Positions 26,978-48,313 of a stretch of DNA of 64,000 nt are shown here, piece by piece. The notes beneath the pieces are model-generated. The model did not search any database and was not told the DNA's origin. It was given only the letters and a program-made list of their open reading frames with translations. The stretch comes from Actinomycetota bacterium (GTDB lineage Bacteria; Actinomycetota; Acidimicrobiia; Acidimicrobiales; VFJN01). Location: NCBI GenBank assembly GCA_049325515.1, contig JBMOLI010000010.1:49602-113601 (forward strand). The letters run 5' to 3'. Every line of letters begins with the position of its first letter. Position 1 is the first letter of the stretch. The translations under genes and the position numbers were made by a program.

Positions 26978-28015
<1,038 letters not shown>

Positions 28016-28143: not shown

Positions 28144-28162
28144 TCGCGAGGGCAGGCGCGCC

Positions 28163-28573: not shown

Positions 28574-28631
28574 GGCCCGCAGGCTAACCACGTCAGTGAG
28601 CCCGCTTGTCCGCATGGCGGCAGCGAAGGTT

Positions 28632-31216: not shown

Positions 31217-31250
31217 GTCGTAATCCCCCGTTGCCTCTCGTGATGCCGGG

Positions 31251-31910
31251 TCAGCTGGCCCGGGTGATCGGTCCGGTGTTGTCGGCCAGCGTACGGGCCG
31301 TGATGACCTCGTCGATGATGCCGTACTCGCGGGCCTCATCCGCGGACATCACGAAGTCGCGCTCGGTGTCGGTGTGGATCTTCTCCGAGTCCTGCCCGGT
31401 GTGGTGGGCCAGAAGGTCGTCGAGCTGGATGCGCATGCGCAGGATCTCACGGGCTGCCAGCTCGACGTCGGTGGCCTGACCGCCGGCCTGACCCCACGGC
31501 TGGTGCAGCAGGACGCGGGCGTGGGGAAGAGCCAGGCGCTTGCCCTTCGTGCCCGCAGCGAGCAGCACCGCCGCGGCTGACGCCGCTTGCCCGAAGCAGA
31601 TGGTGGAGATGTCGGGCTTGACGAAGCTCATCGTGTCGTAGATCGCGAAGAGCGCCGTGATGTCGCCGCCCGGACTGTTGATGTAGATGTTGATGTCGCG
31701 GTCGGCGTTCTCCGACTCGAGGTGGAGCAGCTGGGCGCAGATGAGGTTCGCGATCGTGTCGTCGATCGGGGTGCCCAGGAAGATGATGTGCTCCTTGAGC
31801 AGACGGCTGTAGAGGTCGTAGGCGCGCTCGCCCCGGTTGGTCGACTCGACGACCGTCGGCACCAGGTAGTTGCGGATCACGTTCTGGTGCTGGCCGATGA
31901 GCTCTGTCAC
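31251..31910 (-). CDS. clpP: ATP-dependent Clp protease proteolytic subunit
   Basis: ClpP pattern ([45 protein letters not shown]). The GTG start overlaps the tig stop (GTGA). Confidence 0.9.
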
Positions 31911-33286
31911 GCGTCTTCCGTTCCGTCGGCGACCTCGGTGGTCGCGGTGTCGTCCTCGTCGTCGCTGTCTACCGGGAGCTCGAGCTCGCTGCGGTCGATC
32001 GTCGCACCGTCGGGATCGAGCACCTCGGCCCGTTCCAAGAGCCACTCGAGCGCCTTGCGCTTCTTGATGTCGGAGCGTACCGCCGACAGTTGGCCGACGC
32101 GCTCGAAGCGGGCACGAACCTCAGCCGCGTTCTGCCCGACCCGGGCCGCCACCCCGTCGATCTCCGCGGCGAGGTCGTCCTCGGTGCACTCGATGCCCTC
32201 GGCGTCAGCGACTGCACGCAGAGCCAGGTCGACCTTCACGCCCGCCGTCGCCGTGTCGCGCAGCTCCTGGCTGAAGGTCTGCGGGTCGGCACCGGTCATG
32301 GCCAGGTACTGCTCGAGCTGCATGCCCTGGGCCTGAAGGCGCAGGGCGAGGTCTTGCAGGCGGTCTTGCATCTCGTGGCTGACCAGGGCTTCTGGCAGCT
32401 CATCGGTGACGAGGGCTGCGAGCGCCTCGCCGACCTTCTCGCGCAGCACCATCTGCGCCTGAGCCTTGCGGACGCGTGTCATGCGGTCAGCCAGGCTGGC
32501 CCGCAGCTCGGCCAGCGTGGCGAACTCGGAGGCCTGGGCCGCCCACTTGTCGGTTGGCTCCGGGAGGACCTTCTCCTTGACCTCCTTGACCTGCACCTCA
32601 AAGTGCAGCTGGCGGGACTCGTCCGGGTCGGGGTGGGTGGCCTCGAACGACAGCGTGTCGCCGGCCTTGGCCCCCCGCAGCGCCTCGTCGACTTCTGGGG
32701 TTATGGCCCCCGAGCCAACCGTGTAGCTGTAGTCGTCGGCGGTGAGGCCCGCCTGCGGCTCGCCGTCGAGCGTGCCGGCGACGTCGATGGTGACCGTGTC
32801 GCCGTCGGTGGCCTCGCGGTCGACCTCTTCGAGGGTGCCGTCGAGCTCTCGCATGCGGTCGATCTGAGCGTCGATGACCTCCTCGTCGACCGCCGGCCGA
32901 TCCATGGTCACGGACAGGGCGCCGTAGCCGGGGACCTCGATCGTGGGACGCACCTCGACGACGGCCTCGAAGGCAACGTCGCCGCCATCGTGACCACCAG
33001 TGATGTCGATCTCAGGGGGAGCGATGACGTCCACGTCATGCTCGATGACAGCCGCCGAGTAGTACTCGGGGAGGGAGTCCTGGAGGGCCTGCTCGCGGCC
33101 CACGAGGGGCCCGAGGCGGGTCTCGAGGATCCGGCGCGGGGCCTTGCCCGGACGAAAGCCCGGTATGCGGACCTCCTTGGCGATCTTCTTGAAGGCCGCC
33201 GTCACGGCCTCCTCGAACTCGCCGGCCTCCACCTCGACGGACACCTTGACCTTGTTCCCCTCGAGGGGTTCGACCGTGGATCTCAT
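31907..33286 (-). CDS. tig: trigger factor
   Basis: Internal ATG start ([19 protein letters not shown]...[15 protein letters not shown]). The upstream part of the long ORF runs antisense through two tRNA genes and is not coding. Confidence 0.93.
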
Positions 33287-33374: not shown

Positions 33375-33447
33375 ACGGGGAGTGGCGCAGTGGTAGCGCA
33401 CCTGCTTTGGGAGCAGGAGGTCGGGGGTTCGAATCCCCCCTCCCCGA
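33375..33447 (+). tRNA. tRNA-Pro (anticodon TGG)
   Basis: Cloverleaf read by eye: acceptor CGGGGAG/CTCCCCG, anticodon loop TTTGGGA, T-arm GGGGG-TTCGAAT-CCCCC. Confidence 0.9.
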
Positions 33448-33528
33448 CTCGTGCGCGGCAATGATGCCGGAATGTCCATGGAGCGTTGGAGCGCCGCGCA
33501 CCGAGACGGCTACGGTCGCCGGGAACCT

Positions 33529-33603
33529 GCGGGCGTAGCTCAACGGCTAGAGCCCCAGCCTTCCAAGCTGGTGGTGCGGGTTCGATTCCCGTCGCCCGCT
33601 CCA
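33529..33603 (+). tRNA. tRNA-Gly (anticodon TCC), CCA encoded
   Basis: Acceptor GCGGGCG/CGCCCGC, anticodon loop CTTCCAA, T-loop TTCGATT, 3' TCCA. Confidence 0.9.
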
Positions 33604-34000: not shown

Positions 34001-35494
34001 GTGGGGCCCCTGACCCCCCGCGCTCGAGCGCACCTGCTGGTGGCGGGCGTCGTCGGTGTCGCGCTGACGACACAGACCTTGCGACAGCTGTGGTCGTCCG
34101 ACGTCTGGCAGCACGCCGCCTCGATCGGCGCCTTCGAGGCACACCCCTTCGACCCCAACCACCCGCTCTCGGTCGGCCTGGTCGATGACCCCTACTTCCT
34201 CAACCCTTGGGGCTTCGTGTGGGGGCTCTTCTCGCGCCTGACAGGGCTCGACGTCTTCTCCACGCTCGTGGTGTCGGGCCTCGTCAACATGCTGCTCATC
34301 GGCACCGGCCTGTACCGCCTCACCACACGCTTGTCCGCTGCGCCGCTGGCCCCGGCGTTGGCGATCGTGTCCCTCCTACTGCTGTGGGGACCCACCCCTT
34401 GGCGCTGGAGCGGCTACCCGAACCTCAACTCGATCGGCTTCGGGCTCCCCTATCCCTCGTCCTTCGCGCTGGCGCTGTTCCTCTTCGGCGTCGCCGCCGC
34501 GATCGACATCGCCCGGGGGCCGAGCAAGCCCGCGATCATCGTGATGCTCACCTGCGTCACCCTCGCGGTGCTCAGCCACGCCCTGACCGGCGCTGCGCTG
34601 ATCCTCAGCACCGTGGCGATCACTGTCGCGCCACCGGCCTACGGGTCAACTGCACGGAAGCGGATCGTTGTCGTCGCCGGCATCGTGACCGTGAGCGTCG
34701 GCCTCGCGCTGCTGTGGCCCTTCGGCCACCTGTGGGATCTCGCAGGCGCGCCCGCCGCGTTCGACGACATCAACCGGAGCGTCAACCGCAACCTTGCGGG
34801 CGGCGCCATCTGCGCACTGCTGGTCGCGCCGCTGGCGCTCACGCGAGTGGCGTCCATCGGCGCGTGGCCCCTGCGCGCGATGTTCTTCGCGAACGCGACC
34901 GTCGCAGCCGTCGGCTTCCTCGGGGGGCCCACGTCCGCTGGAAGGTTTCTGCCGTTCGCGCTGCTCGCCGTGCAGCTCGCCTTCGCAGACGTGCTGGCGC
35001 GCTCGCTCGAGCGGTCCGATCACCGGGCCGCCATAGGGGTCGCAGCCGCCTTGCTGCTGGCAGTCGGTCTTGTCGGCTCGCGTGGTGCCCTGGCGCGCCT
35101 CATCCCCAGCCAGGTGCTCACGACCACGCTCGAGGAGGACGACCGGCTCGGGCGCGCAAGCCGAGCCGCGGCACGAGTACCGCAGATCCCCGTCGACGAC
35201 CCGGTCGCGATCGCCGGCGATGGTGTGGATGCTCGTCTGCTCGTGGCCAACGGTGTCCGTGTCGTCTCGCCCCCGTATCCCGTCGCCACGCTCTCAGAGC
35301 GCGAGCTGGCGCGTCGTGCCAGTGACTCTGACCGCTTCCTCAGCGCGTCCGCCGGCGATCAGCGAGCGATCCGCCAGCGCTACGACGTGGACGTGCTCGT
35401 CGTACCGCACGACACGCCCAGCGCGCTGCAGCTAGGGGCGCTCATCGCGTCGAGCCCCACGATGTGGGTCATCGATGTGTCGGGCCTCGACTGA
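34001..35494 (+). CDS. polytopic membrane protein, possibly a GT-C-type glycosyltransferase (function unproven)
   Basis: Roughly 10 or more hydrophobic segments across 497 aa, with a soluble C-terminal region. No diagnostic motif recognised. Confidence 0.5.
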   Translation: MGPLTPRARAHLLVAGVVGVALTTQTLRQLWSSDVWQHAASIGAFEAHPFDPNHPLSVGLVDDPYFLNPWGFVWGLFSRLTGLDVFSTLVVSGLVNMLLIGTGLYRLTTRLSAAPLAPALAIVSLLLLWGPTPWRWSGYPNLNSIGFGLPYPSSFALALFLFGVAAAIDIARGPSKPAIIVMLTCVTLAVLSHALTGAALILSTVAITVAPPAYGSTARKRIVVVAGIVTVSVGLALLWPFGHLWDLAGAPAAFDDINRSVNRNLAGGAICALLVAPLALTRVASIGAWPLRAMFFANATVAAVGFLGGPTSAGRFLPFALLAVQLAFADVLARSLERSDHRAAIGVAAALLLAVGLVGSRGALARLIPSQVLTTTLEEDDRLGRASRAAARVPQIPVDDPVAIAGDGVDARLLVANGVRVVSPPYPVATLSERELARRASDSDRFLSASAGDQRAIRQRYDVDVLVVPHDTPSALQLGALIASSPTMWVIDVSGLD

Positions 35495-37786
35495 CCGACC
35501 GCTCGGCTCTCCGCCCGTCGCGCCGCTCACCCTCGAGCGGTACCGCTCGGCGGGGCGCGCCGGTGATGGCACCTCGGGGGCATGGTCCACCAGGTCGATG
35601 ACCGACGCACGGGGGGAGGCGCTCGTGGTCTTGAGGTGGAGCGTGAACTCAGCCCCGTCACCAGCCTCGCTCTTCACGGTCAGCTCGGCCCCCATGCTGC
35701 GCGCCAGAGCCCGCGAGATGTAGAGGCCGAGGCCAGTGCCTGCCTTCTGCTTGGCGGTGTCCAGCCGCTCGAAGCGCTCGAAGATGCGCTCCTGTTCGTT
35801 GGCCGGGATGCCGGGACCCCAGTCACGTACCGAGACCACGACCCCGTCCTCGCCTTCGCCACGCACCTCGATGCGCACAGGCCCGTTCCCGGCGTATGTC
35901 AGAGCATTGGAGAGGAGGTTGACGAGGATCCGCTCGAACGAGAGGAGGCTTCCGTGAGCTCGCCAGGCACCCCCACCGGTGTCCACTTCGATGTGGGAGG
36001 CGGGCCAGGATTCTTGCACCTCCTCGACCACACGCCCGACGACCTCGCGGATGTCCAGCTCGGTCGGGATGAGATCCGCGGACCGGCGAGCGTCGATGCG
36101 CGTCACCTCTAGCAGGTTCGAGACGAGGCGCTCGAGACGGCGGGTACCACGACGGATGCGACCCAGAGCCTCCGAGCGCATGTCGTCGGAGATCCCGCTG
36201 CGCGGATCGAGCAGCTCGGTGAAGCCCCGGATGGCCACCAGCGGGGTGCGGAGCTCGTGCGACACCGTCCCGATGAAGTCGTCCTTCATCTGATCGATCT
36301 CCTTGGCCCGCGTGACGTCGCGGGCGACCACCACGAGCGTCGCGCCGCCGGCCCCAACCGCGGAGGAGCAACCGAGCCAGCGGTCGCCGCCGGTTGCTGT
36401 GTTGATGAGGACATCCTGAGGGATGCCGACCTCCATCCAGTGCTCGAACCAGATGCGGTTGCCCTGAGCATCGCGCGGCCGGAACCGCGACATCCCAGAC
36501 GTGCCGACGATCTCGGACGCGGGCACACCCGTCATCTCCTCCATGGCCGGGTTCCAGCTCTCGATCACGCCGGCGGCCCCAACCGTGAGTATCCCGTCCG
36601 AGGAGCGGCCGACGATCTCGGCGAGGTTGGCGCGCTCATCGACGATCACACCGAGGAGTGCGCTCTTCTCGAGCGCGCGGCTGACGGCGTCAGCGAGCGC
36701 GACCATCACGGCCTCCTCGCCTTCCTCGAACCCCTCGAAGCCCGTCTTGTCGTATGAGGCGAGGACGCCCACCACGTTGCCATCACGCGTGAGCGGTGCA
36801 GCGATGACGTCGCTTCTCCCCGCAGCGACGAGCGCGGATGCGATGACGCTGTCTGGGCCGGTCGACGACGCGCGGCACGGAACGCCCGCCAGGGCCAGGA
36901 TCCGCCCCAGATCGACCGCCAGAGCGTCGTGCGTGCCGCGCGCCCCCGCGGTCAGCACGCTCGGCGGGTCGAACACCACGAGCTCGACCGAGGCCGACGA
37001 GAACGCCCCTCGAACGTCCTCCAGGAACAGCGCGAGCGAATCCTTCGGATCGATTGGAGCAGCTAGCCGTGCCACAGCACGCGCAAGACCATCGAGGCGT
37101 GCGCGGTCTGCTCTCATCGAGAGGAACGCCTGGTGGCTCCTCCGCACGAACGCGAGCGGTCCGAGCAGGAGAAGGGCCGTGACAGGGCTGGCAACGACGG
37201 CCGCAGCGAAGACGACGCCGAGCGCGGCGTTGATCGACCAGATGACGCCATGCGGCAGGTAGCTGGGCGCTAGGTCTGCGAGCACCTGCCGCATCGGGGC
37301 TCGGCGCACCAACCTCAGCACGCATGCCATCGCGATCTCGTTGGTGGCTGCGAAGACGAGCAGCGCCACGACAAGCGCGGGGATGGTCGAAGCGGTGCCA
37401 GCACGATCGCCCGCAAGCGATCTGTAGACCAGGCTCGCCATCCCGACGGCGGCGCACCACTGCGCGACGTTGAAGATCGCCTTGGTGCGATCGATGCCGA
37501 GTCGGTGCTGCGAGATGCCCTTCGAGACGACCGCGAGGGCTACTGCAGGCGGCCCCGAGAACGTGATCAGGACCGGCGCGAGCACCGCTTCGAAGACGTC
37601 GACGGCGCGCACCTCGTCGCCGTATTGGAACTCGACCTGCAGCGACTCCGCGATGACCAGCGCCAGCGCCAGCGGCGCGAGCAGCCACAGCTCGGCGACT
37701 GGTCCGCTTGCGTAGGCACCTCCGACAGCACCCAGCACGAAGAGCGCGGCTGCCAAGCCGTGCACGGAGCGAGATCCCACCGCCAT
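35432..37786 (-). CDS. sensor histidine kinase (multi-TM, GAF-like, PAS, HisKA, HATPase_c)
   Basis: H-box VSHELRTPL, N/G boxes NLLSNALTY, RDWGPGI and GTGLGLYISR. PAS-like segment IVGRSSDGILTV. N-terminal membrane domain. Confidence 0.85.
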   Translation of the reverse strand: MAVGSRSVHGLAAALFVLGAVGGAYASGPVAELWLLAPLALALVIAESLQVEFQYGDEVRAVDVFEAVLAPVLITFSGPPAVALAVVSKGISQHRLGIDRTKAIFNVAQWCAAVGMASLVYRSLAGDRAGTASTIPALVVALLVFAATNEIAMACVLRLVRRAPMRQVLADLAPSYLPHGVIWSINAALGVVFAAAVVASPVTALLLLGPLAFVRRSHQAFLSMRADRARLDGLARAVARLAAPIDPKDSLALFLEDVRGAFSSASVELVVFDPPSVLTAGARGTHDALAVDLGRILALAGVPCRASSTGPDSVIASALVAAGRSDVIAAPLTRDGNVVGVLASYDKTGFEGFEEGEEAVMVALADAVSRALEKSALLGVIVDERANLAEIVGRSSDGILTVGAAGVIESWNPAMEEMTGVPASEIVGTSGMSRFRPRDAQGNRIWFEHWMEVGIPQDVLINTATGGDRWLGCSSAVGAGGATLVVVARDVTRAKEIDQMKDDFIGTVSHELRTPLVAIRGFTELLDPRSGISDDMRSEALGRIRRGTRRLERLVSNLLEVTRIDARRSADLIPTELDIREVVGRVVEEVQESWPASHIEVDTGGGAWRAHGSLLSFERILVNLLSNALTYAGNGPVRIEVRGEGEDGVVVSVRDWGPGIPANEQERIFERFERLDTAKQKAGTGLGLYISRALARSMGAELTVKSEAGDGAEFTLHLKTTSASPRASVIDLVDHAPEVPSPARPAERYRSRVSGATGGEPSGRSVEARHIDDPHRGARRDERP

Positions 37787-37815
37787 CTACCCGCCTCTGG
37801 TCGCTTGCCTGCTGG

Positions 37816-39372
37816 CTATTGCCAGCTCGTCCCTTGCCAGGAAGTCCCTTGCCAGCTGGTGCCCTGCCAGGAAGTCCCTTGCCAACTCGTCCCTTGCCAA
37901 CTCGTGCCCTGCCACGAGGTCCCTTGCCAGCTGGTGCCCTGCCAGGAGGTCCCTTGCCACGAGGTGCCCTGCCAGCTCGTCCCCTGCCACGAGGTGCCCT
38001 CGTACTCGGTGCCCACGAGGTCGGTGGCACTGGGCGAACCGGCCGGGAACAAGATCGGGTGGAAGTTCGACTGGTTGGCCAGGCCGCCCGGGGCCGACAG
38101 CGCGGCTGCGACGTCGATGATCCCGCTACCGGTGTCGTACGCGGACCCGATCGGACGGGCCGTCGCCATCAGGGCGAACTTGACGCGGTCGTTGGTCGCT
38201 GTCGGGTCTGCTTGGTGCAGCAGCGCGGCCGCGCCGGCGACCTCCGGGGCCGAGAAGCTGGTGCCGCTGCCGAGACGGCGCTCCTCGTCGACGAAGTACG
38301 GGTAGCGGATGTCCGCTTCGCTCCCCGGCGACCGCAGCGAGTGGACGCTACGGCCGGGTGCGGCGACGTCGGGCTTGGCCAGACCGTCGACGAGGGTCGG
38401 GCCGCGCGATGAGAACGGTGCGACCGTGTCGTCGTCGATGGAGACAGTGCCGTGGTCATCCGTCGCGCCGACGGTGATCACCCAGGGATCGTCGCCAGGC
38501 TTGGCGATGGTTCCGGCCTCGCTGCCCTGGTTGCCTGCTGCGACCACGACGGTGATGCCGTTGGCCCACACCTGCTCGACGGCGAGGTTCAGCGGATCGA
38601 GTCGGTAGGACAAGCTCGAGTCACTGCGCATCGAGAGGTTGAGGACGTCGATGCCATAGGCCTCGCGGTTTCCGATGACCCACTGAAGCGCGGTGAGGAC
38701 GGTGCTGACGTTCGACGTGCCGTCACGACCCGACAGCTTGATGGCGATCAGGTCTGCCTCTGGGGCGACGCTGTTCACCATGCCCGCGACGAACGTGCCA
38801 TGGCCGAACGAGTCGTCGCACCCGGGCTCCGTCGACAGGTTCACGCAGCGCTGCGTGACGCCCGCTGAGTCGACGACAGGGCGGACCCGCCCGGCAAGCG
38901 CGGGAACATCCGCGATGCCAGTGTCGATCACGGCAACGGTCGTGCCCGCGCCTGTCAGCCCCTGCGAGCTCGCCGCGGTCGCACCGACGACCTCCCGATG
39001 CACCGACGGGCCGACGGTCGTCGCCGTGCCACCGTCGAGCGGGACGACCATATGGTCGCCGGACACCACACGAACCCCCGGGTGCGCCGCAACATCCGCC
39101 AGGGCGCTCGGAGGGATCGTCGCTGCGAACCCGGAGACGATCGGCAGCGGCTTGGTGACCTGACCACCGAGCAGCGAGACGAGGGTCGACGGGCCAGGGT
39201 CGGCCGGGTCGAGCTGCTGGACTATGACGTTGATCGGGGGCGGCGGCGCCGGCACATCAAGCGCTCGCGCTGGCGTGGCCGCCAGACCACCGAGCATCGC
39301 AACGAGGGCGGCCTTGGCCGCGAGGCGGATCATCCTCGTCCTCGTAACTCGCCCTTGCGCCCTTTGATCCAT
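37816..39372 (-). CDS. S8 family (subtilisin-like) serine peptidase with C-terminal (GTSWQ)x12 tail
   Basis: Catalytic triad contexts VAVIDTGI (D), HGTFVAG (H) and GTSFSAPEVAG (S). Signal-like N-terminus (MIRLAAKAALVAMLGGLAATPARA). Start taken at the ATG at 39372; 39333 is also possible. Confidence 0.85.
   Translation of the reverse strand: MDQRAQGRVTRTRMIRLAAKAALVAMLGGLAATPARALDVPAPPPPINVIVQQLDPADPGPSTLVSLLGGQVTKPLPIVSGFAATIPPSALADVAAHPGVRVVSGDHMVVPLDGGTATTVGPSVHREVVGATAASSQGLTGAGTTVAVIDTGIADVPALAGRVRPVVDSAGVTQRCVNLSTEPGCDDSFGHGTFVAGMVNSVAPEADLIAIKLSGRDGTSNVSTVLTALQWVIGNREAYGIDVLNLSMRSDSSLSYRLDPLNLAVEQVWANGITVVVAAGNQGSEAGTIAKPGDDPWVITVGATDDHGTVSIDDDTVAPFSSRGPTLVDGLAKPDVAAPGRSVHSLRSPGSEADIRYPYFVDEERRLGSGTSFSAPEVAGAAALLHQADPTATNDRVKFALMATARPIGSAYDTGSGIIDVAAALSAPGGLANQSNFHPILFPAGSPSATDLVGTEYEGTSWQGTSWQGTSWQGTSWQGTSWQGTSWQGTSWQGTSWQGTSWQGTSWQGTSWQGTSWQ
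37819..37998 (-). repeat. 12 tandem 15-nt units encoding GTSWQ
   Basis: The units differ at synonymous sites: Gly GGG/GGC, Thr ACG/ACT/ACC, Ser AGC/AGT/TCC/TCG, Gln CAA/CAG. All twelve translate to GTSWQ, and the last is followed directly by TAG. Confidence 0.95.
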
Positions 39373-39657
39373 GCGCTTGCTCACGGTGCGTCCCCCTCCA
39401 GGTGCGTCGCGTGCTGCACTTCGCATTGTTGGGTCGTGAGGGACGTCAGTCCATGGCCCGAAGTGGTCAATCGTCCATGGCCACGACCGCCAGGATGGGT
39501 GAGACAAGACGCGCAAACCAACCGATCACCGCTGAGTTGGACCGACCCGGACTAGCCACTCGAGCTGCTCGGCACGCCTCCGACTCCCTACAGACGGTGG
39601 CGGAGCGGTCGGGACTGTCGCATCTGCCAGGTACGCCCATGGGTAGTCTCCACAACG

Positions 39658-39731
39658 GCCCTCGTAGCTCAGCTGGATAGAGCAGGTCACTTCTAATGAC
39701 GAGGTCGCAGGTTCGAGTCCTGCCGAGGGCG
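39658..39731 (+). tRNA. tRNA-Arg (anticodon TCT)
   Basis: Acceptor GCCCTCG/CGAGGGC, anticodon loop CTTCTAA, T-arm GCAGG-TTCGAGT-CCTGC. Confidence 0.9.
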
Positions 39732-39810
39732 CACGCGGCCCGCTGCCTCCGGCAAGTGCTTCGTGGTTGATGGGCGCTCCGGGAGGTGGCCTATGCTGAC
39801 CGCTCCCCAT

Positions 39811-39888
39811 GGTGGCCGTAGCTCAGGTGGTTAGAGCGCCAGGTTGTGGCCCTGGAGGCCGGGGGTTCAAGTCCCCTCGGTCACCCCA
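39811..39888 (+). tRNA. tRNA-His (anticodon GTG), with G-1 and encoded CCA
   Basis: An extra 5' G precedes acceptor GTGGCCG/CGGTCAC. Anticodon loop TTGTGGC, T-loop TTCAAGT, 3' CCCA. Confidence 0.9.
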
Positions 39889-39962
39889 ATCAAGTCCGGT
39901 CGCCCACACGGCCGGTAGGCCTTCGTAGCCGGGCGCGCGAGCGCCTAGGCTACGAAGCCCAC

Positions 39963-40036
39963 GCCCCTCTAGCTCAATTGGTCAGAGCGTCGGACTCTTA
40001 ATCCGCAGGTTCTGGGTTCGAGTCCCAGGGGGGGTA
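39963..40036 (+). tRNA. tRNA-Lys (anticodon CTT)
   Basis: Acceptor GCCCCTC/GGGGGGT (two G-U pairs), anticodon loop CTCTTAA, T-arm CTGGG-TTCGAGT-CCCAG. Confidence 0.85.
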
Positions 40037-40044
40037 CACCGCAC

Positions 40045-40078
40045 CTACCAGGGCCGTCCACAGCGAGGGCCCTGGTAG
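40045..40078 (+). terminator. perfect 11-bp stem hairpin immediately after the tRNA cluster
   Basis: CTACCAGGGCC, a 12-nt loop, then GGCCCTGGTAG. It starts 9 nt after tRNA-Lys. There is no clear U-tract. Confidence 0.4.
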
Positions 40079-40275
40079 GGCAAGGGTTCGGCCGGATCGG
40101 CGGTTGGTGGGCCACCGCGTTCATGTCGGCGGCTATCCCGGACTCTGTCGCGCTCGGCGCGCGATCAGCAGCGGCAGGTCCTGCCGAAGGGTCCTCCGAA
40201 TCGGGCCCATCGCCCCTGCCTGTCGTGTCCGATTCGGGCGGACGATGTCGCTGTAGCCGATCAGAGGAGGACCCG

Positions 40276-40980
40276 ATGGTTCGCAAGTCGCTCTGGGCCG
40301 TGCTCGTGGCGGGGTTGATGATGATCGTCGCCCCGTTCGCGCTCGGGTTGCCGTCGAAGGCGAGCGCCGGCCAGAAGATGATGGATGGGTTCCGGCCGAT
40401 CATGCAGCCGGCGAACGTGGAGAAGACAGCGTCTTACTACGACGACACCTTCGTCCCGCTCGGGCAGGTGGTGCCTGCTCTCAGCAAGGAGAACATCGCC
40501 AAGTTCAACGGGTACGTACACGGCTTCACAGCCATGGGCGTCGACGCGCAGAACCTGGTGCCCACCCTCGCGCAGGCCATGAACATGACCGCCGCCCAGG
40601 TGCAGGACTTCATGGTCGCCCAGTTCCCGGCCATGAGCCAGATGCTGCAGGCACTGCCGACCATGGAGAAGGACTTCATGGACCTCATGGGCCTGATGGA
40701 GCAGAACGTGGCGATCTTCGAGCAGGTCCCCGGGGGCCTCGCCCACTACAAGCCCCTGGTGACCACCATGCAGGCGAACGTGGACAACTACCGCCGGGCT
40801 GACAGCCTGCCGAACATGAACCTGTTCACCTGGTTCTTCGTGGTTCCGGGTGTCCTGCTCGTGGGGCTCGCCTGGCTCGGCCTCGCCGGGACTCGCAAGT
40901 CCGAACGTCGGCCCACCACAAAGGCGACGCCGGTGCCGGCCCGCGACGCCGAGAGGGTGCCGGTGTCGTCAGCTCTCTGA
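40276..40980 (+). CDS. Met-rich bitopic envelope protein, function unknown
   Basis: AGGAGG lies 7 nt upstream of the ATG at 40276. N-terminal signal or TM segment and a C-terminal TM segment (LFTWFFVVPGVLLVGLAWLGLAG). About 18 Met in 234 aa, concentrated in AQAMNMTAAQVQDFMVAQFPAMSQMLQALPTMEKDFMDLMGLMEQ. Confidence 0.7.
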   Translation: MVRKSLWAVLVAGLMMIVAPFALGLPSKASAGQKMMDGFRPIMQPANVEKTASYYDDTFVPLGQVVPALSKENIAKFNGYVHGFTAMGVDAQNLVPTLAQAMNMTAAQVQDFMVAQFPAMSQMLQALPTMEKDFMDLMGLMEQNVAIFEQVPGGLAHYKPLVTTMQANVDNYRRADSLPNMNLFTWFFVVPGVLLVGLAWLGLAGTRKSERRPTTKATPVPARDAERVPVSSAL

Positions 40981-41098: not shown

Positions 41099-43417
41099 TC
41101 AGGCGGCGGCTCGGAAGCGCAGGCACATGCGCACGCCACCGGCGGGCTCTGGCTCGGCCCAGGCCTCGCCGCCCATGCGCTGCATGAGCGTCCGCACCGT
41201 CGCCAGGCCGGTGCCGGTGCCCTCGACCCCGTCGGCAGATCGGCCGCGGTGCCCGGGCTCGAACACCTTCTCGAGCTCGTCGATGCTGATGCCCTTGCCC
41301 GTGTCAGCGACCACGACCACCCACGACGACGGCCCGTCAGTCCGCGACTGGATGTCAAGAACGAGCTGACGCTCGGGGTGGCGGTATCGGCCGGCGTTCT
41401 GCACGAGGTTGGCGAGAACCTGCGTGACGAGACCGCGGTCGGCCGCGACCACAGGCAGATCCCCGACGATCACTTGCGCGTCACCGATCTCGGTGACCAG
41501 GCCCGGCACGAGCTCTGCCACGACGCGCCCTAGGTCGACTGGCACCATAGGCAGCTCTTCCTCAGCCGCGTTCCGGTAGAGCGCCTCGATGGCCTGTGAG
41601 ATGCGGTCCTTGCCACGGATCGCGCCCTCCACCCACTCGCGATGCTCCTCGTCGAGCTCGTTCGCGTCGCGCTGCAGGAGAGAGAGGAACCCGTCGAGCG
41701 CCACGATCGGCTGCATCAGGTCGTGGGAGAGCGTCCCCGCGAAGGTCGCCAGGCGCAGGTTGGCTGCCGCCAGCTCGGCGGCGTGAAGGCCCAGCGCCTC
41801 GTGAGCTTCCACGAGTGCGGCGCCAGCGGCACGCTGGTCTGCCACATCCCTTGCGAGGGTCACCAGTCCGATGCGAGCTCCTGTTGCATCCACGATGGGG
41901 CCGACTGTCACGTCGACGGCCCTGGGCTCACCTGACGCGCTCAACCAGGTTGCGTCAGGCCAGCGGACGGCTTGGCCGGCCGTCGCGTCCCCCAGGGCGC
42001 GCGCCAGGCGCAGCTGCGAGTCGGGACCGACAAGCCGTGTGAGCGACGCGCCGAGCATCTGCTTCTCCGTCCAGCCGAACAGGCGCTCGGCGGCCGGGTT
42101 CCACAGGGTGCATCGACCCATGCCGTCCGCGATGATCAACGCGTCGGGCGATGCAGCAACGATGCTGCGCAGGACGGCGGCGTCTTCCGTCACCTGGCGG
42201 CTGTCCTCGATGCTGCGGATCTGACGGAGCAGGCGTGCGGGCGTGCCGTTGGCCAGGTGGTCGCCTGGAACGCAGGTGACCGTCACCTCCACCCAGCGCG
42301 CGCTTCCGTCGGCACCGACTACGCGCTCTTCGACGACGTAGGTGGGGCGCTCACCTCGGAGCAGCTCGTCCATGCCGGCAAGGTCCGCGACGAGGTCTTC
42401 GGGATGCACCGACTCCCAGCAGGTCATCTGGAGGAGGTCGGCCACCTCACGCCCGAGGATGCCACCGACCGCGGGGTTGGCCGCGAGGTGCCGCCCGGTC
42501 TCGTCGACGAGGACCATGCCGATCGGGGCCGACTCGAACACCGCCTCCAGGAAGCGAGTGGCGCTCAGCGCCGTGGGCGTGCCCTCCCAGAGGGTGCTGT
42601 GCTCGGGCGGCCGGCGCTCCAGCGAGCCCAGTGCAGCTTCCTCAGCGCGGGCGACCGTGGTGACCAGGTCCTCGGCCGGCTTGGCGTAGAGCCAACCCTG
42701 CACCGCGTCGCAGCCAAGCGAGCGGAGCATCTGCTCCTGCACCGGTCGCTCCACGCCCTCGGCAACCGTGTCGAGGCCGAGAGACTGAGCCAGGCGGACG
42801 ACGCCCCTCACGATCGTGGCGGCGTCGCCATCTGCGTCCATCTGAGCGACGAACGAGCGGTCGATCTTCAGCTCGTCGAGGTGGTAGCGCTGCAGCGCGA
42901 CCAGTGACGAAGCCCCCGTGCCGAAGTCGTCCACGGACAGGCGGATGCCCATCTGCTTCAGCGCCAGGAGCGTCGGGCCGACGGCGTGACCGAGCTCGTG
43001 CAGAGAGTCCTCGCTGAGCTCGAGCGAGAGCAGCTCAGGATCGAAGCCCGTCGCTGACAGAGTCCGCTCGAGCTGCTCGACCGCATCGGGCTCGGTGAGC
43101 TGGTGGAGCGAGAGGTTCACGGCGAGGCGAAGCGGAGCACGGTCGGCGTTGGAGGAGTTGAACCGGCTGACGGCGGTGCAGGCGCTCTGCATGACACGCT
43201 GCCCTATCGGCACGATGCTGCCGGTCTTCTCGGCGAGGGCCAAGAAGAGCTGGGTGTCGAGCACTCGGTCAGCACGGTGCCAGCGGGCCAGTGCCTCGAC
43301 CCCGATCACGCGCCCGTCGTCGAGGCCGACGATGGGCAGGTAGTGGACGCGCACCTCGTCGCGCTCCAATGCCAGCTGGAGGTCGGCTCCAGCGTCGAGC
43401 ACCGAGTCGACAGTCAT
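41099..43417 (-). CDS. EAL phosphodiesterase - PAS - PAS - histidine kinase fusion protein
   Basis: N-terminal EAL domain (GVEALARW, DDFGTG, ELKIDRSF), two PAS-like regions, an H-box LSHDLMQPI, and HATPase_c (ADTGKGI, GTGTGLATV). The start overlaps the stop of the upstream regulator. Confidence 0.8.
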   Translation of the reverse strand: MTVDSVLDAGADLQLALERDEVRVHYLPIVGLDDGRVIGVEALARWHRADRVLDTQLFLALAEKTGSIVPIGQRVMQSACTAVSRFNSSNADRAPLRLAVNLSLHQLTEPDAVEQLERTLSATGFDPELLSLELSEDSLHELGHAVGPTLLALKQMGIRLSVDDFGTGASSLVALQRYHLDELKIDRSFVAQMDADGDAATIVRGVVRLAQSLGLDTVAEGVERPVQEQMLRSLGCDAVQGWLYAKPAEDLVTTVARAEEAALGSLERRPPEHSTLWEGTPTALSATRFLEAVFESAPIGMVLVDETGRHLAANPAVGGILGREVADLLQMTCWESVHPEDLVADLAGMDELLRGERPTYVVEERVVGADGSARWVEVTVTCVPGDHLANGTPARLLRQIRSIEDSRQVTEDAAVLRSIVAASPDALIIADGMGRCTLWNPAAERLFGWTEKQMLGASLTRLVGPDSQLRLARALGDATAGQAVRWPDATWLSASGEPRAVDVTVGPIVDATGARIGLVTLARDVADQRAAGAALVEAHEALGLHAAELAAANLRLATFAGTLSHDLMQPIVALDGFLSLLQRDANELDEEHREWVEGAIRGKDRISQAIEALYRNAAEEELPMVPVDLGRVVAELVPGLVTEIGDAQVIVGDLPVVAADRGLVTQVLANLVQNAGRYRHPERQLVLDIQSRTDGPSSWVVVVADTGKGISIDELEKVFEPGHRGRSADGVEGTGTGLATVRTLMQRMGGEAWAEPEPAGGVRMCLRFRAAA

Positions 43418-44142
43418 CAGAGGCAGGCGACGTTAGGGGTGGCGCCGTCACCTGAGCCTGGGAGCCGAGGCGCCACGAGGCCGAGGCGGATCGCCTCTGA
43501 GACGGCCGAGAGCCGGTCGTGGACCCCGAGCTTGAGCATCGCCCGCGCCAGGTGGTTGCGAACCGTGTTGTTGCTGATGCAGAGCCTCCGAGCGGCGTCG
43601 ACGGTCGACTCGCCGCAGGCCAGCGCCTCGAGCACGTCGAGCTCGCGTCGCGACAGGTCGTTCCGTCCGACCACGTCGGACCTACCCGTGCGGGCCAGCA
43701 GCACCGGCGTGAGAGCTGCTGGCACGACGAGATCGCCTGCGACCACGCGAGCGACGGTGTCGAGGATCTGGGCGACGGGCTGCGTCTTGGAGATGATGCC
43801 CTGCACCCCGGCGTCGAGAGCCGCGAGACATGACCGCTGCGTGGGCCAACCGGTCATCATCACGATCCGCGATCCCGGGCTTGCAACCTTCAGCTCAGCC
43901 ACGTGCTCGTCCATGTCGCCGTCCGGCAGGCGCCGGTCGGTGAGGATCACGTCGGGCTGGATCGACGCTGCCGTGACCACACCATCTGCGATAGATGACG
44001 CCGTACCGACCACTTCGGTACGTCCGTCCTGGGCGAAGGCGGCCCGGAGCGCCGAGCTGAGCAGCTCATGGTCGTCGATCACCAGAACGGTGATCGTCCT
44101 GACTGCTTCCATGGTTTCCATCTTGAGGTGTTCCTCTCGCAT
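43417..44142 (-). CDS. LuxR/NarL-family response regulator (start uncertain)
   Basis: Receiver domain (TVLVIDDHELL...D...) and a C-terminal HTH (LSRRELDVLEALACGESTVDAARRLCISNNTVRNHL). Several in-frame starts between 44112 and 44157. Confidence 0.85.
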   Translation of the reverse strand: MREEHLKMETMEAVRTITVLVIDDHELLSSALRAAFAQDGRTEVVGTASSIADGVVTAASIQPDVILTDRRLPDGDMDEHVAELKVASPGSRIVMMTGWPTQRSCLAALDAGVQGIISKTQPVAQILDTVARVVAGDLVVPAALTPVLLARTGRSDVVGRNDLSRRELDVLEALACGESTVDAARRLCISNNTVRNHLARAMLKLGVHDRLSAVSEAIRLGLVAPRLPGSGDGATPNVACL

Positions 44143-44335
44143 GGACGTTTCCCTCAAAACGCCTCAAGGGACCATCGGCGGGATCGACATGCACCTTTAG
44201 AGCACTTCAGCGTGAATCGATCCGCCTGGGTCCATCGGCTCAGTCCTCGTGGATCAGCGGTGATGCGCCATCGCACCAATCATCGGGTGCAGGCTGATCT
44301 GCTCGCACCTCGAGCGGGTGGTCGACGTGTTGGGC

Positions 44336-47503: not shown

Positions 47504-48115
47504 TCACGCCGTGGGGCCGTCGGAGCGCTTCTCGCGCACGTGGTCGATGATGCCGTACTCCTTGGCCTGCTCCGCTGTGAACCAGCGATCGCGCTCGGAG
47601 TCGGCCTGCACCTGCTCGACGGTCTGGCCGGTGTGGTGCGCGATGCGCTCCGCCATCAGTCGCTTGATGTAGATCAGCTGCTCGGCCTGGATGGCGATGT
47701 CGCTGGCCTGGCCCCGCACGCCGCCCGAAGGCTGGTGCATCATGATCCGCGCGTGCGGGAGTGCGAAGCGCTTGCCGGGGGCGCCAGCCGCCAACAGGAA
47801 CTGGCCCATCGACGCCGCAAGGCCCATGCAGATCGTGGCGACGTCAGGGCGGACGAACTGCATCGTGTCGTAGATGGCCATGCCGTCCGTGACCGAGCCG
47901 CCAGGGCTGTTGATGTAGAGCCAGATGTCCTTGTCGGGATCCTCGCCCTCGAGGAACAGCATCTGCGCGCAGATGATGTTCGCCACATCGTCGTTCACGT
48001 CGGTGCCGAGGATGATGATCCGATCACGGAGCAGCCGGTTGAAGATCTCCGATGTCGGGTTGGCGATCGGGCTCTGGGCGTAGGGCATGGGGGGCTGTGC
48101 GTGGTTCTGGCTCAT
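47504..48115 (-). CDS. clpP: ATP-dependent Clp protease proteolytic subunit (second paralog)
   Basis: [33 protein letters not shown] and MMHQPSGG. Confidence 0.9.
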
Positions 48116-48173: not shown

Positions 48174-48257
48174 GCACCAGTGGCGGAATTGGCAGACGCG
48201 CGGGCCTTAGGAGCCCGTGAGCTAACGCTCGTGTGGGTTCGACCCCCACCTGGTGCA
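48174..48257 (+). tRNA. tRNA-Leu (anticodon TAG)
   Basis: Acceptor GCACCAG/CTGGTGC, anticodon loop CTTAGGA, long variable arm, T-arm GTGGG-TTCGACC-CCCAC. Confidence 0.9.
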
Positions 48258-48313
48258 CCGCACGATCTCAGCGGGGGAACGACGGCCGTAGGACGCCCGA
48301 TAGCCTCCCGGCC

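What the first reader, a model, noticed from the sequence alone, without database searches (positions are those of the whole stretch)
37819..37998. S8 peptidase ends in twelve perfect GTSWQ pentapeptides encoded by synonymously divergent units
The last 60 residues of the subtilisin-like protease are exactly (GTSWQ)x12, and the stop codon follows the final Gln. The twelve 15-nt units are not identical. Gly uses GGG/GGC, Thr uses ACG/ACT/ACC and Gln uses CAA/CAG. Ser alternates between the AGY and TCN codon families, a change that needs at least two substitutions. Perfect peptide conservation over divergent DNA argues for selection on the peptide repeat rather than recent slippage. A regularly spaced Trp array could be a cell-wall or glycan-binding tail, or a self-association tail. 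The gene lies 29 nt upstream of a GAF/PAS histidine kinase.
Basis: seen in the sequence. Interest (0 to 1): 0.6.

Follow-up and report, generated by a model that had tools for sequence, protein, structure and literature searches.

The report
Tryptophan pentapeptide tail on sensor-linked subtilase
A secreted subtilisin-type protease of an uncultured actinobacterium ends in twelve identical Gly-Thr-Ser-Trp-Gln units; this tryptophan-every-fifth-residue tail is kept by selection in hundreds of related proteases, whose genes nearly always sit directly upstream of a membrane sensor gene, and neither the tail nor the gene pair appears to have been described.

Summary
The minus-strand gene 37816..39333 encodes a pre-pro-subtilase whose last 60 residues are (GTSWQ)x12. 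They are encoded by 11 different 15-nt units, followed by a stop codon, a 29-nt gap and a membrane histidine kinase gene.

The tail is not a one-off.
- More than 100 homologous S8 peptidases carry a C-terminal G-x-x-W-x array of 4-37 units. They come from Acidimicrobiia and other Actinomycetota, Chloroflexota and Dormibacterota.
- Units are uniform within a clade and differ between clades (GTSWQ, GSNWQ, GSSWY, GASWH and others).
- In the GTSWQ clade, 341 of 346 units are perfect, while the rest of the protein is 16-29% diverged. Copy number runs from 6 to 17.

So arrays turn over by unit duplication and loss, under very strong purifying selection on the peptide.

The protease gene is almost always followed, within 2-70 nt, by a sensor with a polytopic membrane domain (weakly MASE9-like) and a GAF domain. 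The sensor's output is either a histidine kinase or GGDEF-EAL. This holds in 26 of about 32 protease-centred loci and 54 of 63 sensor-centred loci.

The fold is unresolved. GTSWQ matches four of the five positions of the pentapeptide-repeat consensus, with Trp replacing the central Leu/Phe, but AlphaFold2 gives pLDDT below 30.

Best reading: an envelope-docking tail that couples a secreted protease to its partner sensor. Function is inferred, not shown.

The parts
37816..39333 (-). Gene for a secreted pre-pro-subtilase (S8 peptidase, 505 aa) with the Trp-pentapeptide tail
   Evidence: ORF and translation. Pfam S8 E 5.9e-42. 100% identical NCBI MAG protein P0001 of 505 aa. ATG 39333 is preceded by GAGGACGAGG. 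Residues D137, N268 and S359 are invariant and H178 is nearly invariant in 54 homologues. In the AF2 model most of the propeptide and catalytic core (residues ~31-430) has pLDDT above 90, with lower-confidence loops. Foldseek best matches are pro-subtilisins.
39262..39333 (-). Predicted Sec signal peptide (MIRLAAKAALVAMLGGLAATPARA, with an Ala-x-Ala site)
   Evidence: Read from the sequence. AF2 models residues 2-15 as a helix with low confidence. Cleavage is inferred, not tested.
39040..39234 (-). N-terminal propeptide (inhibitor I9-like beta-alpha-beta fold, residues about 34-98)
   Evidence: AF2 secondary structure E34-40, H47-54, E58-63, E68-73, H75-83, E87-92. Foldseek matches cover the propeptides of Tk-SP and pro-subtilisin E. 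The homologue P0119 has a weak Pfam Inhibitor_I9 hit.
38152..38952 (-). S8 catalytic domain
   Evidence: Pfam PF00082 covers residues 189-455 of the 566-aa ORF, which is 128-394 of the 505-aa protein. The catalytic residues are conserved.
37999..38151 (-). Linker between the catalytic domain and the repeat (contains the conserved motif NFHPILFP ... DLVGTEYE)
   Evidence: Tails of homologues listed. AF2 confidence falls from residue 431 onward and is below 50 from residue 441.
37819..37998 (-). Twelve GTSWQ units (the finding): Trp every fifth residue, 11 distinct DNA units
   Evidence: Homologous arrays occur in more than 100 proteins. AF2 pLDDT is below 30.
37816..37818 (-). Stop codon TAG directly after the last Gln
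   Evidence: The array runs to the stop codon in all 28 GTSWQ-clade proteins: the last two residues are Trp-Gln in 27 and Trp-Glu in one (P0016).
37787..37815 (-). 29-nt intergenic gap with a GAGG ribosome-binding-like site; no terminator-like site; probable co-transcription
   Evidence: Sequence. Terminator scan. The same tight spacing, 2-70 nt, is seen in related loci.
35432..37786 (-). Partner sensor histidine kinase (784 aa): polytopic membrane domain, GAF, PAS, HisKA, HATPase_c
   Evidence: Pfam. Hydropathy shows six or more hydrophobic segments, with short connecting loops, in residues 1-215. A homologous membrane+GAF module lies directly downstream of tail-bearing S8 genes in other loci.
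37112..37786 (-). N-terminal polytopic membrane sensor domain of the kinase (weakly MASE9-like)
   Evidence: Pfam MASE9 PF20972, E 6.6e-4, 20.1 bits, below the 24.3-bit cut-off. Weak MASE9 marks on orthologues. Together with the GAF domain, this is the part of the partner that is conserved, while the output domain varies.

Best explanation
The tail is a real, selected, family-defining module. It is a C-terminal array of G-x-x-W-x pentapeptides on a secreted, catalytically competent subtilase. The subtilase gene forms a conserved two-gene unit with a membrane sensor made of a polytopic, weakly MASE9-like domain plus a GAF domain.

The most likely role is docking. After export and propeptide removal, the periodic Trp array holds the protease at the cell envelope, at the membrane interface and/or on the sensor's membrane domain. 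Protease and sensor would then work as a pair in one of two ways: the protease or its products feed the sensor's input, or the sensor gates the protease. The array may be a regular solenoid with stacked Trp, Ser/Asn and Gln/Tyr ladders, related to pentapeptide-repeat helices, or an extended strip that orders only on binding.

Arrays evolve by duplication and loss of units. Strong purifying selection keeps every unit identical within a clade.

Shown: the repeat, its conservation, its taxonomic spread, the copy-number turnover, the intact catalytic residues, the signal-peptide-like N-terminus, and the gene pairing.

Inferred: secretion, envelope or partner docking, the direction of signalling, and the fold.
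For: Conservation
- In the GTSWQ clade, 341 of 346 units are perfect, while the remainder of the protein is 16-29% diverged.
- Synonymous heterogeneity is present in all nine sequenced GTSWQ arrays. Only the terminal units show positional orthology: the last unit is GGG ACN AGC TGG CAR (ACG in four) in 5 of 6 arrays, and the first unit uses a TCN serine codon in 6 of 6.

Family-wide feature
- All full-length proteins among the 120 best homologues, apart from two with frameshifted tails (P0062, P0063), carry a period-5 Trp tail.
- A DNA-pattern scan of GTDB species genomes gave 38 genuine S8+tail genes among 120 rows, in several phyla.
- A scan of 1.84 billion representative proteins gave 252 hits at E<=1e-10, with S8 peptidases carrying 12-37 units among the best.
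- A more degenerate clade keeps eight aromatic units with position-specific sequences, plus a conserved ...SAWYGAWE end. This argues for a defined structure or interface rather than junk.

Secreted active enzyme
- Signal-peptide-like N-terminus, I9-like propeptide, conserved Asp/His/Asn/Ser, and two invariant Cys.

Pairing
- The sensor gene lies directly downstream in the window and in all nine homologue-derived loci that extend past the S8 stop (L001-L006, L127-L129; a short contig carrying P0004 also has an unannotated ORF there). Flanking genes differ between unrelated loci.
- It is also there in 26 of about 32 GTDB loci.
- Reciprocally, 54 of 63 sensor-centred metagenome loci have the tail-bearing S8 directly upstream.
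- Only the membrane+GAF part of the partner is conserved. The output switches between HisKA/HATPase and GGDEF-EAL. This places the functional link at the input, membrane side.

Physical plausibility
- On the Wimley-White interfacial scale (values from my own knowledge), GTSWQ sums to about -1.0 kcal/mol per unit. Nearly all other unit types are also negative, whereas a canonical ADLSG pentapeptide is +1.0.
- G-x-x-W-x arrays also occur in other extracellular proteins: a cadherin-like protein, an adhesion-GPCR ectodomain, and peptidoglycan-binding proteins.
- MASE9 was proposed to bind its ligand within the membrane, and that ligand is unknown (bioRxiv 10.1101/2021.11.05.467447).
Against: - No experiment or structure supports docking.
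- AlphaFold2 gives no confident structure for the tail in two different variants (pLDDT below 30 and 22-38). Neither a solenoid nor an interface is visible.
- Simple membrane-interface binding does not explain why Thr, Ser and Gln are also invariant within a clade.
- About one fifth of tail-bearing S8 genes have no sensor within 8 kb, so the tail can exist without the partner.
- Gene adjacency could reflect co-regulation only.
- The MASE9 match is below Pfam's threshold.
Confidence: 0.42

Rival explanations
1. [quoted passage not shown] It would act as a rigid structural block or a protein-binding surface. This concerns the fold and could coexist with the docking role.
For: - T-S-W-Q-G fits four of the five positions of the updated consensus (A/C/S/V/T/L/I)(D/N/S/K/E/I/R)(L/F)(S/T/R/E/Q/K/V/D)(G/D/E/N/R/Q/K). 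There are at least 8 contiguous repeats (PMC8145042).
- The GANWQ homologue P0042 passes Pfam Pentapeptide (28.3 bits against a 20.2 cut-off). As a query it hits designed and natural pentapeptide-repeat structures with Trp aligned to the central Leu (4yfo 1e-33, Np275/276, Qnr, Rfr).
- The only PDB hit of GTSWQx12 is AhQnr 3pss (E 0.011), which itself contains an N-R-W-Q-G unit.
- The modal copy number is 12. Other clades have 8 units, then a short insert, then 3-4 more units.
Against: - GTSWQx12 itself has no Pfam hit.
- Only 4 of 25 unit variants hit Pfam Pentapeptide. A family-level profile finds only AhQnr, at E 0.59.
- AF2 does not predict a helix.
- The position that should face the core (i-2) is Lys, Arg, Gln, Asn or Trp in several family members: GKNWQ, GRSWS, GQSWS, GNTWT, GWNWQ.
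- By my own rough volume estimate, four Trp plus four Thr per coil need about 70% more core area than Leu/Ala.
- Copy numbers are not restricted to multiples of four.
Confidence: 0.2
2. The tail is a poly-pentapeptide signal precursor. The attached subtilase, or a sister molecule, cuts after each Trp and releases about 12 identical peptides (QGTSW). These are sensed in the membrane by the adjacent polytopic sensor, giving an autocrine or quorum-type circuit.
For: - Units are identical within a protein and differ between clades. This is the pattern seen in multi-copy peptide precursors.
- Selection acts on every residue of every unit.
- Pairing with a polytopic sensor of unknown ligand is conserved.
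- From my own knowledge: subtilisins prefer large hydrophobic P1 residues; Bacillus Phr pentapeptides are released by subtilisin, Epr and Vpr; and peptide pheromones are sensed by polytopic kinases such as AgrC.
Against: - Related clades with the same partner gene have eight non-identical, position-specific units (PSDWY, LSTWE, VNRWN and so on). These cannot yield one signal.
- Arrays in non-protease proteins (a cadherin-like protein, a GPCR ectodomain) argue for a structural module.
- There is no evidence of cleavage.
- Unit number is fixed at eight in some clades.
Confidence: 0.1
3. The tail binds the cell wall or a glycan non-covalently. It would be a functional analogue of the choline-binding, GW or WxL modules of Firmicutes, with no direct contact to the sensor. 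The gene pairing would reflect only co-regulation of an envelope protease by an envelope-stress sensor.
For: - C-terminal aromatic repeats on secreted Gram-positive enzymes are commonly wall anchors (my own knowledge).
- Verrucomicrobiota proteins combine GRNWN repeats with a C-terminal sequence resembling a peptidoglycan-binding domain (recognised by eye, not scanned against Pfam).
- Some tail-bearing S8 genes lack the sensor.
Against: - There are no Pfam or NCBIfam hits to any known wall-binding module.
- The output domain of the partner varies, including c-di-GMP enzymes that do not regulate transcription directly, while the membrane domain is conserved. This fits an input-side link better than co-regulation.
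- Binding has not been tested.
Confidence: 0.2
4. The tail is a C-terminal propeptide or a neutral low-complexity expansion. It is removed or irrelevant after maturation, or is an assembly artefact.
For: - Several subtilases have C-terminal pro-sequences (my own knowledge).
- AF2 predicts no structure.
- Copy number varies.
- A few database entries have frameshifted tails: P0062, P0063 and L029.
Against: - Neutral expansion is excluded by zero amino-acid change over heavily diverged synonymous sites and across 28 orthologues.
- An artefact is excluded by independent assemblies from many studies.
- Frameshifted tails are rare, about 3 in about 160.
- A removable propeptide is not excluded, but it would not explain clade-wide identity of units.
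Confidence: 0.06

Closest known systems
Pentapeptide repeat proteins (Pfam PF00805; Rfr right-handed quadrilateral beta-helix, e.g. MfpA, Qnr, Np275/276)
   Same: Tandem five-residue units, at least 8 in a row. A small or polar residue at i-2, Ser/Asn at i-1, a hydrophobic residue at the centre and Gly at i+2. The GANWQ-type homologues pass the Pfam threshold. AhQnr contains one N-R-W-Q-G unit.
   Different: The centre residue is always Trp, not Leu/Phe. GTSWQ itself has no Pfam hit. The i-2 position can be Lys, Arg, Gln or Trp in relatives. AF2 predicts no helix. The array is an extracellular C-terminal appendage of a protease, a context not mentioned in the review (PMC8145042 has no occurrence of 'Trp', 'tryptophan' or 'protease').
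Subtilases with C-terminal extensions (Tk-SP with a beta-jelly-roll domain, PPC/P-domains, the aqualysin C-terminal pro-sequence)
   Same: A classical pre-pro-subtilisin core with an extra C-terminal part. The best structural matches are Tk-SP (3afg, 30% identity), pro-subtilisin E and Tk-subtilisin.
   Different: The extension is a perfect pentapeptide array rather than a globular domain, and no known C-terminal domain family matches it.
Non-covalent cell-wall anchoring repeats of Gram-positive secreted proteins (choline-binding CW_binding_1, GW modules, WxL)
   Same: C-terminal, aromatic-rich, repeated, and found on secreted enzymes. Plausibly the same job of surface retention.
   Different: Those repeats are 20-80 residues long and have known folds. 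There is no sequence match here. Binding is untested.
Extracytoplasmic protease plus membrane signalling protein pairs (LapG-LapD; PepD-MprAB; HtrA-CssRS)
   Same: The gene for a secreted or periplasmic protease lies next to a membrane GGDEF-EAL protein or histidine kinase. LapD controls LapG by direct binding (my own knowledge).
   Different: The protease classes differ (Cys or S1 against S8). The sensor here has almost no extracytoplasmic domain. No homology was tested or expected; this is an analogy only.
MASE9 membrane sensor domain (Pfam PF20972; Galperin & Chou, bioRxiv 10.1101/2021.11.05.467447)
   Same: A polytopic N-terminal sensor domain, promiscuously fused to HK, GGDEF-EAL or HD-GYP outputs. 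Its ligand is unknown and is proposed to bind within the membrane. There are weak Pfam matches in the window kinase and its orthologues.
   Different: The score is below the gathering threshold (20.1 against 24.3 bits). The paper reports no association with a protease.
Tandem-repeat peptide-signal precursors and Phr pentapeptides released by subtilisin, Epr and Vpr
   Same: Identical short units in tandem. An S8 protease acts as the processing enzyme. A sensor gene is adjacent.
   Different: Here protease and repeats are one polypeptide. No cleavage has been shown. Sister clades have non-identical units.

Membership tests
Peptidase S8 (subtilase) | Match to the family profile above the curated threshold | tested here: met
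   PF00082 at 144.4 bits against a cut-off of 21.8.
Peptidase S8 (subtilase) | Catalytic Asp-His-Ser triad and oxyanion Asn, in the order D, H, N, S | tested here: met
   D137, N268 and S359 are invariant and H178 is at least 90% conserved in 54 homologues. The subtilisin fold is modelled with pLDDT above 90, and Foldseek matches pro-subtilisins.
Type VII secretion mycosin (TIGR03921) | Score above the NCBIfam equivalog cut-off | tested here: not met
   124.6 bits against a cut-off of 278.75.
Pentapeptide repeat protein (PF00805 / Rfr fold) | At least eight contiguous five-residue repeats | tested here: met
   Twelve contiguous units. The definition is from PMC8145042.
Pentapeptide repeat protein (PF00805 / Rfr fold) | Consensus (A/C/S/V/T/L/I)(D/N/S/K/E/I/R)(L/F)(S/T/R/E/Q/K/V/D)(G/D/E/N/R/Q/K), with Leu or Phe at the centre | tested here: not met
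   T-S-W-Q-G fits four of five positions. The centre is Trp in every unit, and in almost every unit across the family (Phe replaces Trp in one unit of one degenerate clade).
Pentapeptide repeat protein (PF00805 / Rfr fold) | Pfam gathering threshold | tested here: not met
   There is no hit for GTSWQx12 even at E<=10. It is met only by some relatives: P0042 (GANWQ) at 28.3 bits and P0127 (GAVWE) at 23.7 bits. Four of 25 unit variants hit.
Pentapeptide repeat protein (PF00805 / Rfr fold) | Right-handed quadrilateral beta-helix fold | tested here: inconclusive
   AF2 gives pLDDT below 30 for the tail in the window protein, and 22-38 in the degenerate homologue P0119. There is no experimental structure.
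MASE9 sensor domain (PF20972), for the partner kinase | Pfam gathering threshold over the N-terminal membrane region | tested here: inconclusive
   E 6.6e-4 and 20.1 bits against a cut-off of 24.3. Weak marks on orthologues. Polytopic topology is supported by hydropathy.
Known cell-wall binding repeats (CW_binding_1, GW, WxL, SLH, LysM, PG_binding) | Profile match in the tail | tested here: not met
   There is no such Pfam or NCBIfam hit in the protein or in the isolated tail.
Sortase, lipoprotein or CTERM-type sorting signals | LPXTG-like motif plus a TM helix and basic tail, or a lipobox Cys | tested here: not met
   The sequence ends ...GTSWQ-stop with no hydrophobic segment, and there is no Cys at the signal-peptide cleavage region.

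The most novel reading that the evidence does not exclude
The protease and its tail form a self-contained signal generator. The subtilase cuts its own, or a neighbour's, tail after each Trp. This releases a dozen identical, clade-specific Trp pentapeptides, which partition into the membrane and are read by the adjacent MASE9-like sensor. That would be a new kind of bacterial peptide signalling in uncultured soil Actinomycetota, and it would give a first ligand class for a MASE-type intramembrane sensor.
Probability: 0.1. Interest if true: 0.9.

Novelty: new variant of a known kind. Interest (0 to 1): 0.62.

Why it matters
Three points would interest specialists.

1. The array is an unusually clean natural case of near-perfect protein-level conservation. 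It holds over about 350 units in 28 species, on top of scrambled synonymous sites and changing copy number. It is a textbook system for separating selection from slippage in tandem repeats, and for asking why every unit must be identical.

2. The module is a Trp-centred pentapeptide array that lies at the edge of, or outside, the pentapeptide-repeat family. AlphaFold2 does not resolve it, so the fold or binding mode may be new.

3. Its tight and reciprocal genetic coupling to a polytopic membrane+GAF sensor gives a concrete, testable lead. The ligands of MASE-type intramembrane sensor domains are essentially unknown, and this pairing suggests what such a domain might sense or control. The output domain swaps between histidine kinase and c-di-GMP enzymes.

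The family is abundant in soil metagenomes. Every genuine example among the rows examined comes from an uncultured organism.

Tried and rejected
Structure
- Two AlphaFold2 runs, one on the window protein with 54 homologues and one on the degenerate homologue P0119 with 48, gave no usable model of the tail. A fold search could therefore be used only for the catalytic part.

Literature
- Searches for the unit strings GTSWQ, GSNWQ, GSSWY, GASWH and GTNWQ returned only unrelated hits.
- Searches for pentapeptide, tryptophan and subtilisin topics found nothing relevant.

Positional orthology of units
- No significant signal between species, apart from the terminal units (30 comparisons, smallest p about 0.01). 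Synonymous sites are saturated, since flanking DNA is only about 79% identical, so the test has little power.

Genome pattern scan
- About two thirds of the 120 rows were out-of-frame artefacts of other GC-rich repeats and were discarded.
- Many short GVAWR, GVVWC and GLAWL 'proteins' in the representative search look like mistranslated simple DNA repeats.

Ideas rejected
- A RiPP or radical-SAM Trp-modification idea: no such enzyme is a conserved neighbour, and only the sensor is.
- A cognate response regulator: a stand-alone receiver gene sits next to the protease gene in four GTSWQ-clade contigs (L002, L127, L129 and the P0003 contig), but there is no homologue in this window.
- Mycosin membership.

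DNA could not be fetched for two of the closest orthologues, P0003 and P0004.
Full report
OBSERVATION

On the minus strand, an ORF ending at 37816 encodes a subtilase (Pfam PF00082, E 5.9e-42). Its last 60 residues are exactly (GTSWQ)x12, at window 37819-37998, followed by TAG at 37816-37818.

The twelve 15-nt units comprise 11 distinct sequences. Codon counts are Gly GGG 7 / GGC 5; Thr ACC 6 / ACG 4 / ACT 2; Ser AGC 4 / AGT 2 / TCG 3 / TCC 3; Gln CAA 7 / CAG 5. Tandem Repeats Finder sees the array at period 15, and more cleanly at periods 30 and 45.

The probable start is ATG 39333, preceded by GAGGACGAGG. This gives a 505-aa protein identical to an NCBI MAG entry (P0001). The next gene starts 29 nt downstream, at 37786. 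It encodes a protein with GAF, PAS, HisKA and HATPase_c domains. The gap holds GAGG and no terminator-like site.

THE PROTEIN

The N-terminus (MIRLAAKAALVAMLGGLAATPARA|LD) looks like a Sec signal peptide. AlphaFold2 models an I9-like propeptide and a subtilisin core, most of it at pLDDT above 90. Foldseek matches pro-subtilisins: Tk-SP 3afg at 30% identity, pro-subtilisin E and Tk-subtilisin. D137, N268 and S359 are invariant and H178 is nearly invariant in 54 homologues, as are two Cys residues. The protein is not a mycosin: it scores 124.6 bits against a cut-off of 278.75. It is, by inference, a secreted and active pre-pro-subtilase.

THE TAIL IS A FAMILY FEATURE

The 120 best homologues are 45-84% identical and come mostly from soil metagenomes and from Acidimicrobiia, Microthrixaceae and other Actinomycetota MAGs. 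All full-length proteins among them, apart from two with frameshifted tails, end in a tail with Trp every fifth residue.
- Units are uniform within a protein and differ between clades: GTSWQ, GTNWQ, GSNWQ, GANWQ, GKNWQ, GWNWQ, GSSWY, GASWH, GASWY, GSNWY.
- One clade has eight non-identical but position-specific units (GAPWL PSDWY LSTWE VNRWN RVTWY GNDWP GSKWH GSSWY), followed by a conserved ...SAWYGAWE end.

Thirty-eight are genuine S8+tail genes. They come from Acidimicrobiia, Thermoleophilia, Frankiales, a Mycobacteriales MAG, Acidothermus, Nitriliruptoraceae, Euzebyaceae, Chloroflexota, Dormibacterota and Acidiferrales/Angelobacter bins, and all are MAGs. Most other rows are out-of-frame artefacts.

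A full HMMER scan of 1.84 billion representative proteins with the tail alone gave 2166 hits at E<=1e-3 and 252 at E<=1e-10. S8 peptidases with 12-37 units are among the best (GISWD x37, GNSWT x31, ATSWG x32). A few other extracellular proteins also appear: a cadherin-like/Big_9 protein with GVDWN x15, and an adhesion-GPCR ectodomain with 93 units.

EVOLUTION

In the 28 GTSWQ-clade proteins, 341 of 346 units are perfect. The exceptions are ESSWQ, GSSWE and ATSWQ twice, all as the last unit, and one internal GTTWQ. Meanwhile the rest of the protein differs by 16-29%. Copy number is 6-17, with a mode of 12 (13 of 28), then 14 and 16.

DNA was obtained for nine GTSWQ arrays.
- The fraction of distinct units ranges from 5 of 12 to 11 of 12. 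The window's array is the most heterogeneous.
- Within-array difference (3.44 of 15 nt) is not smaller than between-species difference (about 3.1).
- Only the terminal units look orthologous. The last unit is GGG ACN AGC TGG CAR (ACG in four) in 5 of 6 arrays, and the first unit uses a TCN serine codon in 6 of 6.
- AGY and TCN serine codons coexist in eight of the nine arrays (all but L001).
- Other arrays show recent expansion. In the L003 GSNWQ array, 10 of 15 units are identical at the DNA level. L001 has runs of identical units.

In the window, rare codons are over-used relative to four neighbouring genes: CAA 7 of 12 against 11% (p about 1e-4), GGG 7 of 12 against 22%, and AGT 2 of 12 against 1.3%. 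CAA is always followed by GGG, and CAG by GGC in 4 of 5 cases. These counts are not independent, because units are related by duplication.

My reading is as follows. Arrays are old. Interior units turn over by duplication and loss, often of two-unit blocks. An old serine-codon polymorphism is shuffled by this process. Purifying selection on each residue of each unit is stronger than on the catalytic domain. The between-clade switch of the whole array to another unit type requires array turnover (concerted evolution), not parallel substitution. Frameshifted tails are rare (P0062, P0063, L029).

THE PARTNER GENE

The sensor gene lies 2-62 nt downstream of the protease gene in all nine homologue-derived loci that extend past the S8 stop (L001-L006 and L127-L129). 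A short contig carrying P0004 also has an unannotated ORF there. Flanking genes differ between unrelated loci.

In the GTDB loci with enough downstream DNA, 26 of about 32 have a downstream ORF that matches the N-terminal polytopic membrane+GAF part of the window kinase. Six to nine have none within 8 kb.

The C-terminal output differs. It is HisKA/HATPase in the Acidimicrobiia-type pairs and GGDEF+EAL, sometimes with extra PAS/GAF domains, in others. The membrane part is weakly MASE9-like (E 6.6e-4, below the cut-off). Hydropathy shows six or more hydrophobic segments with short connecting loops.

The reciprocal test started from an alignment of the sensor N-termini. It retrieved 76 metagenome loci. 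Of the 63 with at least 250 nt upstream, 54 have an S8 gene with a period-5 aromatic tail directly upstream, at a gap of 5-70 nt. The nine without are the most distant sensor matches.

MASE9 was defined as a promiscuous intramembrane sensor of unknown ligand (bioRxiv 10.1101/2021.11.05.467447). That paper mentions no link to a protease.

STRUCTURE

By sequence, T-S-W-Q-G fits four of the five positions of the updated pentapeptide-repeat consensus, and there are more than 8 repeats (PMC8145042).
- The GANWQ relative passes Pfam Pentapeptide. It also hits solved pentapeptide-repeat structures with Trp aligned to the central Leu.
- The only PDB hit of GTSWQx12 is AhQnr (E 0.011), which has one N-R-W-Q-G unit.

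The case against is also substantial.
- GTSWQ has no Pfam hit.
- Only 4 of 25 unit variants do, and a family profile finds only AhQnr at E 0.59.
- The supposedly core-facing i-2 position can be Lys, Arg, Gln, Asn or Trp.
- AF2 gives pLDDT below 30 for this tail and 22-38 for the degenerate tail.

I therefore do not file the tail as a pentapeptide-repeat protein. It may be a Trp-ladder solenoid of related or different geometry, or a strip that orders only on binding. On the Wimley-White interfacial scale (values from my own knowledge), GTSWQ sums to about -1.0 kcal/mol per unit, and nearly all other unit types are also favourable. Membrane-interface binding of an unfolded tail is therefore physically plausible.

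MECHANISM

My best-supported reading, at confidence about 0.4, is that the tail is an envelope or partner docking module. It would keep a secreted subtilase next to a polytopic sensor with which it forms a functional pair.

The link is placed at the membrane, input side because only that part of the partner is conserved. The direction of signalling is unknown: the protease could feed the sensor, or the sensor could gate the protease as LapD gates LapG.

The rivals are as follows.
- A canonical Rfr helix. This is a statement about the fold, and it is compatible with docking.
- Cell-wall or glycan binding, with the gene pairing reflecting only co-regulation.
- A self-processed poly-pentapeptide signal precursor.
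- A removable C-terminal propeptide.

Neutral expansion and assembly artefact are excluded by the conservation data.

NOVELTY

No curated family (Pfam, NCBIfam) covers the tail, and no paper in the searched library mentions these units. The review of pentapeptide-repeat proteins mentions neither Trp nor proteases.

I rate this as a new variant of a known kind: a repeat appendage on a subtilase, at the margin of the pentapeptide-repeat class, with a previously unreported conserved protease-sensor gene pair.

Noticed in passing
window 41099-43417 (-) and 43417-44157 (-): A single protein combines an N-terminal EAL domain with two PAS domains, HisKA and HATPase_c. This is an unusual EAL-histidine-kinase fusion. 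A LuxR-type response regulator gene lies directly upstream, and its stop overlaps the kinase gene's start.
   Followed up: no
window 39658-40037 (+), 33376-33603 (+), 48174-48259 (+), 56646-57033 (+): A tRNA-Arg/His/Lys cluster lies just upstream of, and divergent from, the protease gene. The window also holds tRNA-Pro/Gly next to the trigger factor gene, tRNA-Leu, and a tmRNA with tag peptide ANEQYALAA. The short ORFs 39526-39810 and 39969-40403 overlap tRNAs and are probably not genes.
   Followed up: partly
L093 and L110 (Verrucomicrobiota / Candidatus Udaeobacter MAGs): Small secreted proteins carry GRNWN/GHNWN pentapeptide repeats, then a Gly/Tyr/Trp-rich low-complexity stretch, then a C-terminal sequence resembling a peptidoglycan-binding domain. 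This is a non-protease context for Trp pentapeptide arrays at the cell envelope.
   Followed up: partly
P0122, P0208, P0233 (representative proteins): Trp pentapeptide arrays occur in other extracellular proteins. An adhesion-GPCR-type protein (GPS + 7tm_2) has 93 GQVWN/GLVWN units in its ectodomain. A bacterial cadherin-like/Big_9 protein has GVDWN x15. An NHL-repeat + S8 protein has GSSWS x19.
   Followed up: partly
L002 7260-7646, L127 2419-2805, L129 772-1158, and the P0003 contig: A stand-alone receiver-domain protein of 128-131 aa is encoded next to the protease gene in four GTSWQ-clade contigs. It may be the kinase's partner. No homologue was found in this window by tblastn.
   Followed up: partly
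window 37819-37998 (-): Codon choices are coupled across the unit boundary. CAA is followed by GGG in 6 of 6 cases, and CAG by GGC in 4 of 5, so G-runs stay at three. Together with the better 30-nt periodicity, this suggests either two-unit duplication blocks or avoidance of longer G runs.
   Followed up: partly
P0062, P0063, L029: A few database homologues have tails that shift frame inside the repeat and continue as Arg/Gly/Pro-rich sequence. They may be sequencing or assembly indels in the repeat, or rare pseudogenised tails.
   Followed up: no
window 26978-33286 and 47504-48115: Housekeeping genes surround the locus: MreB, a Mur ligase, ClpX, trigger factor and ClpP. ORF 34001-35494 (+), convergent with the kinase gene, has no Pfam match.
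   Followed up: no
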